Assembly: GCF_045037415.1 (NCBI RefSeq) | Contig: NZ_CP173438.1 | DNA length: 64,000 nt | Source of the DNA: Escherichia coli | GTDB taxonomy: Bacteria; Pseudomonadota; Gammaproteobacteria; Enterobacterales; Enterobacteriaceae | Reading direction: 5' to 3' (one strand) | Shown here: piece after piece, positions 58,060-58,165 of the stretch | Layout: each line of letters opens with the position of its first letter | Numbering within the stretch: position 1 is the first letter of the stretch | Translations under genes and position numbers: made by a program | The notes under the pieces: model-generated | Seen by the model: only the letters and a program-made list of their open reading frames with translations | The model's database searches: none | Told to the model about the DNA's origin: nothing

Positions 58060-58165
58060 TTCATGCCGGATGCGGCGTGAACGCCTTATCCGGCCTACAA
58101 AAATCTTGCCAATTCAATATATTGCAGGACCACGTAGGCCTGATAAGCGTAGCGCATCAGGCAGT
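58060..58165. repeat. pair of REP (repetitive extragenic palindromic) units between fepA and entD
   Basis: gccggatgcggcgtgaacgccttatccggcctac (58065-58097) and inverted copy gtaggcctgataagcgtagcgcatcaggca (58135-58164). Confidence 0.8.

What the first reader, a model, noticed from the sequence alone, without database searches (positions are those of the whole stretch)
58060..58165. Inverted REP pair (BIME-like) between fepA and entD
Two canonical REP units in opposite orientation are read directly in the 165-bp fepA-entD spacer. Such elements can act as transcript stabilisers or attenuators and as gyrase or IHF binding sites, which may modulate read-through from fepA into entD.
Basis: seen in the sequence. 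Interest (0 to 1): 0.15.

Follow-up and report, generated by a model that had tools for sequence, protein, structure and literature searches.

The report
Known BIME-1 repeat between fepA and entD
The two inverted REP palindromes are real and form the core of a well-known 152-156 bp E. coli repeat (BIME-1, also called RIP or RIB) that fills almost the whole fepA-entD spacer; it most likely shapes the 3' end of the fepA message and limits read-through into entD, so this is an ordinary, already described kind of element.

Summary
A y-type REP (58065-58098, +) and a short z-type REP (58134-58162, -) both match the REP consensus with no mismatch. They are the only such units in the 64 kb window.

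The element is more specific and larger than the finding says. It is one complete BIME-1 / RIP unit at 58034-58189, made of a flank, REP-y, a 35-nt L linker with an IHF-like core, inverted REP-z1 and a second flank. A profile built from 19 E. albertii paralogs hits it at E=1.7e-46. The linker passes Rfam RF02751.

The unit sits at identical junctions from E. coli to E. albertii and varies far less than neighbouring synonymous sites (12% of columns against 58-70%). E. fergusonii, Citrobacter and 59 of 5426 complete E. coli genomes lack it. They carry a 12-bp GC hairpin at exactly that position.

Published Term-seq data place an RNA 3' end inside the element in K-12, at the position equivalent to 58153, in minimal medium only. 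That is 3 nt past a predicted composite hairpin.

Best reading: an RNA 3'-end, stabiliser and attenuator module within the fepA-entD operon, with probable IHF binding. Known kind, low interest.

The parts
58023..58025 (+). fepA stop codon (fepA CDS 55785-58025)
   Evidence: ORF list. The translation MNKK...INTHF* is 746 aa, as in K-12. RefSeq annotation under 100% identical matches.
58034..58189 (.). Complete BIME-1 / RIP repeat unit (about 152-156 bp, a long imperfect palindrome)
   Evidence: nhmmer with a profile of E. albertii paralogs: alignment 58035-58186, envelope 58034-58189, E=1.7e-46. A paralog in E. coli W4 aligns to 58034-58189 (H79). Comparison with BIME-less alleles puts the replaced segment at 58034-58187.
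58034..58064 (+). Left flank of the unit (TCAGATTGTTGACAAAGTGCGCGTAGTTCAT), partly complementary to the right flank
   Evidence: Conserved in most paralogs. Inverted repeat I2, 58036-58049 against 58172-58185.
58065..58098 (+). REP / palindromic unit, y type (ends in CTAC; an iREP in the Ton-Hoang convention)
   Evidence: 0 mismatches to the consensus. Folds alone at -21.3 kcal/mol with the characteristic internal mismatch.
58099..58133 (+). L linker of BIME-1
   Evidence: Rfam RF02751 ES036 hit at 58100-58141, 42.2 bits against a gathering score of 37.6. The same linker lies between y and z REPs in at least 17 E. albertii copies. The linker query finds a median of 7 close copies per E. coli genome.
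58112..58124 (+). IHF-consensus-like core ATTCAATATATTG (8 of 9 specified positions of WATCAANNNNTTR)
   Evidence: It is the only match of 8/9 or better in the spacer. The match is not significant on its own. IHF binding is inferred from the family.
58134..58162 (-). REP / palindromic unit, short z (z1) type, inverted relative to REP-y
   Evidence: 0 mismatches. This short z form accompanies the L linker in 20 of 22 E. albertii copies.
58163..58187 (+). Right flank of the unit (AGTTTTGCGTTTGTCATCATTCTCT), U-rich directly after REP-z
   Evidence: Conserved in paralogs and in orthologs.
58083..58150 (+). Predicted central RNA hairpin: 3' half of REP-y, the L hairpin and the 5' half of REP-z
   Evidence: -26.5 kcal/mol alone. 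Pair probabilities are about 1.0 in the ensemble of the whole unit, against about 0 for the two local REP hairpins. The whole spacer folds at -69.1 kcal/mol, z=-5.2.
58153..58153 (+). Position equivalent to the Term-seq RNA 3' end at K-12 610126 (-)
   Evidence: PMC7815308, supplementary file 1, sheet M63 0.4. The 3' end lies 47 nt upstream of the entD ATG and the listed sequence matches this element.
58191..58202 (+). entD start region: ATG at 58191 (older 209-aa call) and ATG at 58200 (RefSeq-type start). The entD ORF runs to 58859.
   Evidence: Sequence; ORF frame; alignment to K-12 entD.

Best explanation
The feature is one complete BIME-1 element (also called RIP or RIB). It is a 152-156 bp composite repeat made of a y-type REP, the conserved L linker with an IHF-type site, an inverted z1-type REP and two partly complementary flanks. 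It occupies nearly all of the fepA-entD spacer. Shown here: its identity, its boundaries, its multi-copy nature, its orthologous conservation across Escherichia, and the existence of an RNA 3' end inside it in K-12. Inferred mechanism: the Fur-controlled fepA promoter transcribes through the element. The transcribed unit folds into a stable composite hairpin, in which the 3' half of REP-y pairs with the 5' half of REP-z. This hairpin stops 3'-to-5' exonucleases, partly stops or pauses transcription, or does both. Most transcripts therefore end as a stabilised fepA mRNA, and only a fraction continues into entD. That would give high FepA and low EntD from one iron-regulated promoter. At the DNA level the linker probably binds IHF, as in other BIME-1 copies. 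The element took the place of an older simple GC-rich hairpin that still sits at the same spot in E. fergusonii, Citrobacter and about 1% of E. coli, so the two structures are probably functional equivalents.
For: Identity: with definitions. RNA structure: the spacer folds at -69.1 kcal/mol, z=-5.2, with 0 of 200 shuffles as stable; long-range y/z pairing has probability of about 1. RNA 3' end: Term-seq places one at K-12 610126(-), equivalent to window 58153, which is 3 nt 3' of the predicted hairpin base at 58150. It is detected only in the M63 sheet and not in the LB sheets. I assume, but did not test, that M63 is the condition in which fepA is induced. Read-through: entD belongs with fepA to the Fur-1 iModulon. 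The spacer has no sigma-70 match and no good Fur box, with a best score of 10/19 against 13/19 in the fes-fepA region. Constraint: among 7 Escherichia orthologs only 18 of 154 columns vary, against 58% of fepA and 70% of entD four-fold sites. Window against E. albertii differs at 7 of 153 positions, against 33-39% at four-fold sites, binomial p=4e-18. Locus-specific linker bases are kept in all orthologs. Functional replacement: BIME-less alleles have a 12-bp perfect hairpin (-21 to -26 kcal/mol), with different sequences in the two Citrobacter species, at the same position 8-10 nt after the stop codon. [quoted passage not shown]
Against: No experiment at this locus links the element to the fepA:entD expression ratio. 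The 3' end comes from a single data set and a single condition, and it could be a decay intermediate with no regulatory consequence. The consensus scan found no intrinsic terminator. Rho dependence is unknown, because the Rho data set was made in LB, where no 3' end was recorded at this locus. Thermodynamic folding ignores co-transcriptional formation of the local REP-y hairpin. The slow evolution could reflect homogenisation with the many paralogs rather than selection at this locus. The family-conserved columns are the most conserved (6 of 94 variable), and only 9 columns are truly family-variable, which is too few for a test. The 59 E. coli genomes and E. fergusonii appear to do without the element.
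Confidence: 0.6

Rival explanations
1. The element is a passenger. It is a selfish or neutral mobile repeat, spread by the REP-associated tyrosine transposase or by recombination, that happens to lie in this spacer and has no locus-specific role. Any RNA 3' end is then a by-product of its stable structure.
For: The repeat is multi-copy in Escherichia. It shows presence/absence polymorphism at this locus (59 of 5426 genomes lack it) and at yqjF-yqjG (78 of 5426 have it). TnpA-REP cleaves and recombines BIMEs in vitro. BIME-less strains and E. fergusonii keep an intact fepA-entD.
Against: The unit is retained at identical junctions from E. albertii to E. coli and is about 5-fold less variable than synonymous sites, including its locus-specific linker bases. 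It replaced a structurally conserved hairpin instead of landing in unstructured DNA.
Confidence: 0.25
2. The primary role is at the DNA level. The linker is an IHF site, and the element serves nucleoid architecture or local topology (IHF bending, weak gyrase or Pol I binding) rather than RNA fate.
For: The L linker carries ATTCAATATATTG, which matches 8 of 9 positions of the IHF consensus. The literature states that the BIME-1 inter-REP sequence interacts with IHF. The linker core is invariant in all orthologs except for one inserted base in E. marmotae.
Against: No IHF binding data could be retrieved for this locus. An 8/9 match occurs 64 times in the window, so it is weak evidence alone. BIME-1 has lower gyrase affinity than BIME-2. 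REP325 did not measurably organise the chromosome in recent work. A DNA-level role does not explain why a plain RNA-type hairpin occupies the same place in BIME-less alleles.
Confidence: 0.1
3. The linker encodes an independent small RNA gene (Rfam ES036 / CssrF).
For: The Rfam RF02751 hit is above the gathering score (42.2 against 37.6 bits). A stable RNA 3' end lies just downstream.
Against: No promoter-like site was found. The match is to a dispersed repeat linker present in many copies. The RNA is in the same sense as, and contiguous with, the fepA 3' region, so any stable fragment is more simply a 3'-UTR decay product.
Confidence: 0.03
4. The element carries or creates the promoter from which entD is expressed.
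For: One paper remarks that entD possesses its own promoters (PMC10763504).
Against: No sigma-70-like match was found at 57800-58400 on either strand. entD is co-regulated with fepA in the Fur-1 iModulon although the spacer lacks a Fur box. BIME-less alleles have only 49 bp between the two genes.
Confidence: 0.02

Closest known systems
BIME-1 / RIP (repetitive IHF-binding palindromic element) / RIB of E. coli (Gilson 1991; Oppenheim 1993; Boccard and Prentki 1993; summarised in PMC3333891 and PMC2817692)
   Same: It has one y REP and one z1 REP in inverse orientation, the long conserved L linker with an IHF-type site, and single-copy architecture. It is extragenic and downstream of a gene, with many copies per genome and conserved outer flanks.
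   Different: Nothing structural differs; it is a member. Its context is slightly unusual, because it lies inside an operon (fepA-entD) rather than at the end of a transcription unit. Unlike several paralogs, it is not bracketed by duplicated terminator hairpins.
REP325 between yjdM and yjdN (bioRxiv 10.64898/2026.03.23.713779)
   Same: It is a REP-containing element between tandem genes of one operon. It is proposed to stabilise the upstream mRNA and attenuate transcription into the downstream gene.
   Different: REP325 is a tandem array of 12 hairpins and has direct experimental support. The fepA-entD element is a single BIME-1 with an IHF-type linker and has only a mapped 3' end.
REPINs (inverted REP doublets with a spacer, mobilised by RAYT transposases; Pseudomonas and others)
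   Same: Both have two inverted REPs plus a spacer forming one long hairpin-forming unit that behaves as a dispersed, polymorphic element.
   Different: The E. coli BIME-1 has a specific conserved linker and extra conserved flanks. Mobilisation by the E. coli TnpA-REP has been shown only as cleavage and strand exchange in vitro.
Rfam RF02751 ES036 (CssrF) 'sRNA'
   Same: 58100-58141 matches the full 43-nt model above its gathering score.
   Different: The Rfam family corresponds to the BIME-1 linker plus the first bases of the z REP. Here it is part of the fepA 3' region, and there is no sign of its own promoter.
Simple post-fepA GC hairpin of E. fergusonii, Citrobacter and a minority of E. 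coli
   Same: It has the same position (starting 8-10 nt after the fepA stop) and the same predicted property, a strong RNA stem-loop between fepA and entD.
   Different: It is 29 bp, unique-sequence and not a repeat. In C. amalonaticus it is followed by a U-rich tract, like an intrinsic terminator.

Membership tests
REP / palindromic unit (E. coli) | A 30-40 nt imperfect palindrome with a conserved GTAG/CTAC tetranucleotide at the foot and an internal mismatch in the stem | tested here: met
   Both units match the consensus with 0 mismatches. The CTAC of y and the GTAG of z face the linker. The fold shows a stem with an internal mismatch.
REP / palindromic unit (E. coli) | Highly repeated in the genome and extragenic | tested here: met
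   A median of at least 40 places per genome, which is the cap. The units lie between the fepA stop and the entD start.
BIME-1 / RIP / RIB | One y REP and one z1 REP in inverse orientation, as a single copy rather than a tandem array | tested here: met
   y lies at 58065-58098 (+) and short z at 58134-58162 (-), with no further REP in the window. The short z form is the one associated with the L linker in 20 of 22 E. albertii copies. The label 'z1' for the short form rests on that association and on my memory of Bachellier's nomenclature.
BIME-1 / RIP / RIB | A long, well conserved L linker between the REPs | tested here: met
   The 35-nt linker matches Rfam RF02751 and the paralog profile. 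The paralogs were found through an exact 15-mer of the linker, so conservation of that core among them holds by construction. The Rfam model is independent of that search.
BIME-1 / RIP / RIB | IHF binding to the linker | not testable with these tools
   At the sequence level there is an 8/9 match to WATCAANNNNTTR at 58112-58124. No locus-specific binding data could be retrieved.
BIME-1 / RIP / RIB | Location at the 3' end of a transcription unit | tested here: inconclusive
   It follows fepA and coincides with an RNA 3' end, but entD downstream is co-regulated with fepA. It therefore marks a partial end within an operon.
BIME-2 (gyrase-binding arrays) | Tandem y/z2 REPs with short S linkers | tested here: not met
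   There is a single pair, a long L linker and a short z unit.
Rfam RF02751 ES036 | Covariance-model score at or above the gathering threshold | tested here: met
   42.2 bits against 37.6, covering the full model 1-43.
Intrinsic (Rho-independent) terminator | A GC-rich hairpin immediately followed by a U tract | tested here: inconclusive
   The consensus scan found none. REP-z is followed by AGUUUUGCGUUUG, but the mapped 3' end (58153) lies upstream of that tract.
REPs that stall terminating ribosomes (Liang, Rudd and Deutscher 2015; from memory, paper not retrievable) | REP hairpin beginning within about 15 nt of the stop codon | tested here: not met
   REP-y starts 39 nt after the fepA stop (58026-58064). 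The unit itself starts 8 nt after it, but with a non-REP flank.
REPIN / RAYT-mobilised doublet | A cognate RAYT (tnpA-REP) in the genome and evidence of mobility | not tested
   No RAYT was looked for in the window. Mobility is suggested only by presence/absence polymorphism.

The most novel reading that the evidence does not exclude
The fepA-entD BIME-1 may not be a mere passenger. It may be a selectively maintained replacement of an ancestral terminator-like hairpin, kept almost unchanged since before the split of E. albertii and E. coli. On this reading it works as a composite RNA hairpin (y/z long-range pairing) that sets the fepA:entD expression ratio. More generally, full-length BIME-1 units would be 152-bp MITE-like elements with imperfect terminal inverted repeats that home to terminator hairpins and usually duplicate them, as in the occupied and empty yqjF-yqjG sites. 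That target-site behaviour is not expected for IS200/IS605-type (RAYT) transposition.
Probability: 0.25. Interest if true: 0.45.

Novelty: already known. Interest (0 to 1): 0.18.

Why it matters
The element is a textbook-type E. coli repeat, and, as I recall, REP sequences in this spacer were already noted when entD was first sequenced. It has modest practical value.

- The mechanical ORF through the palindrome (GTG 58050) explains over-long EntD entries in databases.
- About 1% of sequenced E. coli and E. fergusonii carry a plain hairpin instead of the BIME. This is a ready-made natural allele swap for testing what a BIME-1 does to the expression of an iron-regulated operon.
- The strong orthologous conservation and the Term-seq 3' end argue that at least this copy is not neutral.

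Tried and rejected
- My first REP pattern forced a 5-nt loop and found nothing. A variable loop fixed this.
- The K-12 RefSeq record in the collection carries no repeat_region features, so no official REP/RIP number could be obtained.
- Literature searches for fepA/entD with REP gave nothing relevant.
- Boccard and Prentki 1993 and Gilson 1991 are not held.
- The IHF ChIP-seq paper has no held supplement and does not discuss REPs.
- An IHF/ChIP/entD search gave nothing useful.
- The CssrF/ES036 search returned only unrelated papers.
- The REP-translation paper of Liang et al. was not found.
Most hits were chance matches in unrelated AT-rich genomes. Only the 22 E. albertii hits were informative, and the E. 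coli representative and the orthologous E. albertii copy were not reached.
- The promoter and terminator consensus scan was negative, and the Fur-box scan of the spacer was negative, so I rejected an internal entD promoter.
- I rejected BIME-2 and a gyrase target (single pair, L linker).
- I rejected wholesale gene conversion from paralogs as the sole cause of conservation, because locus-specific linker bases are retained in all orthologs. Homogenisation at family-consensus positions is not excluded.
- I considered that the BIME moved from fepA-entD to yqjF-yqjG in strains such as 2016C-3878, which lacks one copy and has the other. I rejected this because the two copies differ in their linkers (92% identity).

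Full report
**What is there.** The window is E. coli. A 421-nt stretch around the finding is 100% identical to many RefSeq E. coli chromosomes, and the flanking genes are annotated fepA and entD. fepA ends with TGA at 58023-58025. entD starts at ATG 58191 (older call) or 58200 (RefSeq-type call).

The spacer contains GCCGGATGCGGCGTGAACGCCTTATCCGGCCTAC at 58065-58098. It also contains, on the opposite strand at 58134-58162, GCCTGATGCGCTACGCTTATCAGGCCTAC. A consensus scan with a variable loop finds exactly these two units in 64 kb with no mismatch, and shuffles give 0.06 hits on average.

**What it is.** The 35-nt linker (58099-58133) is not arbitrary.
- It matches the Rfam family RF02751 (ES036/CssrF) over the whole 43-nt model, at 42.2 bits against a gathering score of 37.6.
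- An exact 15-mer from its centre occurs 22 times in the E. albertii type-strain genome.
- At least 17 of those copies have the same arrangement: flank, y REP, linker, inverted short z REP, flank.
- A profile built only from 19 E. albertii copies hits the window once, at 58035-58186 (envelope 58034-58189), with E=1.7e-46.
- A paralog between yqjF and yqjG in E. coli W4 aligns to exactly 58034-58189.

Ton-Hoang et al. define BIME-1 as a single z1 and y pair separated by a long, well conserved L linker that frequently carries an IHF site. They define BIME-2 as tandem z2/y units with short linkers. Nunvar et al. say the same and assign strong gyrase binding to BIME-2 and atypical BIMEs.

The element is therefore a complete BIME-1, also called RIP or RIB, of about 152-156 bp. 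That is somewhat larger than the finding's coordinates, and it leaves only 8 nt after the fepA stop and a few nt before the entD start. The linker centre ATTCAATATATTG matches 8 of 9 specified positions of the IHF consensus. That is suggestive only, because such matches are common.

**Evolutionary context.** I fetched the fepA-entD region from eight other genomes through EntD homologues.
- The unit is present at identical junctions in K-12, Escherichia sp. E4742, E. whittamii, E. ruysiae, E. marmotae and E. albertii.
- E. fergusonii, Citrobacter freundii and C. amalonaticus have a 49-51 bp spacer without it.
- 59 of 5426 complete E. coli genomes also lack it, while 5345 have it.
- In the BIME-less alleles the position of the unit is taken by a 29-bp segment forming a perfect 12-bp GC-rich hairpin (-21 to -26 kcal/mol). 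The two Citrobacter species have different sequences that preserve the stem.
- The shared flanks are TGCTAACG on the left and AATAT(A/G)GTTGACATG on the right. The BIME therefore replaces the hairpin rather than adding to it.

The unit is strikingly conserved. Among seven Escherichia orthologs only 18 of 154 columns vary. By comparison, 58% of fepA four-fold sites, 70% of entD four-fold sites and 17% of all fepA columns vary. Window against E. albertii differs at 7 of 153 positions, against 33-39% at four-fold sites. Locus-specific linker bases (TCTTGCC, GACCAC), which differ among paralogs, are retained in the orthologs. This argues against simple overwriting by paralogs, but homogenisation at family-consensus positions cannot be excluded.

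In fepA and entD trees the BIME-less alleles nest among BIME-bearing E. coli alleles, while basal E. albertii has the BIME. The polymorphism is therefore either old or moved by short-patch recombination. I could not resolve this.

**How it probably works.** As RNA the spacer is far more structured than shuffles (-69.1 kcal/mol, z=-5.2). In the ensemble of the whole unit the two REPs do not form separate hairpins. Instead the 3' half of REP-y pairs with the 5' half of REP-z around a small linker hairpin (58083-58150), with pair probabilities near 1, and the outer flanks pair with each other.

Published Term-seq data for K-12 list an RNA 3' end at 610126 on the minus strand. It lies 47 nt upstream of the entD ATG, and the listed sequence matches this element. 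It appears only in the M63 minimal-medium sheet. This corresponds to window 58153, 3 nt beyond the base of the predicted composite hairpin. An exonuclease-trimmed or terminated end is expected at about that distance. The position lies inside, not after, the local REP-z hairpin.

entD is nevertheless co-regulated with fepA in the Fur-1 iModulon. The spacer has no sigma-70-like promoter and no good Fur box. Some transcription must therefore read through.

Together with the recent demonstration that REP325 both stabilises the upstream mRNA and partially terminates transcription between tandem genes, the best-supported model is this. The BIME-1 defines a protected 3' end for most fepA transcripts and lets a minority continue into entD. 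IHF binding at the DNA level is likely by family membership but untested here.

The steps that are shown are identity, structure prediction, the 3' end in K-12 and co-regulation. The steps that are inferred are the causal link between the hairpin and the 3' end, the attenuation of entD, and IHF binding.

**Rivals.**
- A purely selfish or neutral passenger remains possible (about 0.25). It sits poorly with the conservation and with the replacement of a structurally conserved hairpin.
- A primarily DNA-level IHF role is possible (about 0.1).
- An independent sRNA gene or an entD promoter is unlikely.

**Comparison with what is known, and novelty.** The element meets every testable defining feature of BIME-1 and fails those of BIME-2. 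It is a member of a family described in 1991-1993. To my recollection, which I could not verify with the held library, REP sequences in this spacer were noted in the 1989 entD sequencing papers. It does not belong to the class of REPs that begin within about 15 nt of a stop codon, since REP-y starts 39 nt after the stop. The finding is therefore already known in kind and of low interest. The added details are the exact unit boundaries, the orthologous conservation, the natural BIME-less alleles and the match between the Term-seq 3' end and the composite hairpin.

**Side observation.** Many paralogous BIME-1 units are bracketed immediately on both sides by direct copies of a 13-26 bp terminator-like hairpin. 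At yqjF-yqjG the occupied site (78 of 5426 genomes) is 178 bp longer than the empty site, which equals the unit plus a second copy of the hairpin. The two loops differ from the loop of the empty site. The fepA-entD copy lacks such a duplication. I found no discussion of this in the held literature. It may be described in older papers that I could not read.

Noticed in passing
L132:1487-1676 (E. coli W4, yqjF-yqjG) against L133:151-248 (K-12 J53, empty site); E. albertii loci L040, L041, L044, L049: Full-length BIME-1 units (151-152 bp) are often flanked immediately on both sides by direct copies of a 13-26 bp terminator-like hairpin. At yqjF-yqjG the occupied site is 178 bp longer than the empty site, which equals the unit plus a second hairpin copy, and the two hairpin loops differ from the loop of the empty site. 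Only 78 of 5426 E. coli genomes are occupied there. This looks like hairpin-targeted insertion with duplication, which is not expected for IS200/IS605-type transposition. The fepA-entD copy has no such duplication.
   Followed up: partly
window 58034-58187 against L130:3023-3071, L131, L122:2952-3000: 59 of 5426 complete E. coli genomes and E. fergusonii carry a 29-bp perfect hairpin in place of the BIME. These alleles nest inside BIME-bearing E. coli alleles in fepA and entD trees, although basal E. albertii has the BIME and Citrobacter has the hairpin. This points to an old polymorphism or to short-patch recombination.
   Followed up: partly
window 58200-58859: entD of this strain encodes 219 aa, against 206 aa in K-12. 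It is about 14% divergent from K-12 entD at the nucleotide level, and only 511 of 660 nt align by blastn. In the entD NJ tree the window allele branches outside all the other Escherichia alleles, although some pairwise distances among those are larger. The locus is unusually polymorphic.
   Followed up: partly
window 58050-58859: A mechanical ORF starting at GTG 58050 runs through the BIME into entD (269 aa). Public EntD entries of 232-260 aa (for example P0001, P0016, P0028) are probably N-terminal over-extensions through the repeat.
   Followed up: partly
window 58100-58141: The Rfam 'sRNA' family RF02751 (ES036/CssrF) corresponds to the L linker of BIME-1 plus the first bases of the z REP. 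The family is a dispersed repeat linker rather than a single gene. The sub-threshold naRNA4 (RF02564) hits on the REP units have the same cause.
   Followed up: partly
window 58172-58200: The right flank of the unit (UGUCAUCAU) can pair either with the left flank (in the whole-unit fold) or with the entD initiation region AUGGUUGACAUG (in the spacer fold). The two folds would expose or mask the entD start. This is speculative.
   Followed up: no
L122, L123, L126, L128, L129, L130, L131 downstream of entD; L001:1-852: One or two hok/gef-type toxin genes (hokE) lie just downstream of entD in most of the Escherichia loci fetched; none was called in the E. marmotae locus (L127). K-12 has IS186 108 bp beyond the entD stop.
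   Followed up: no
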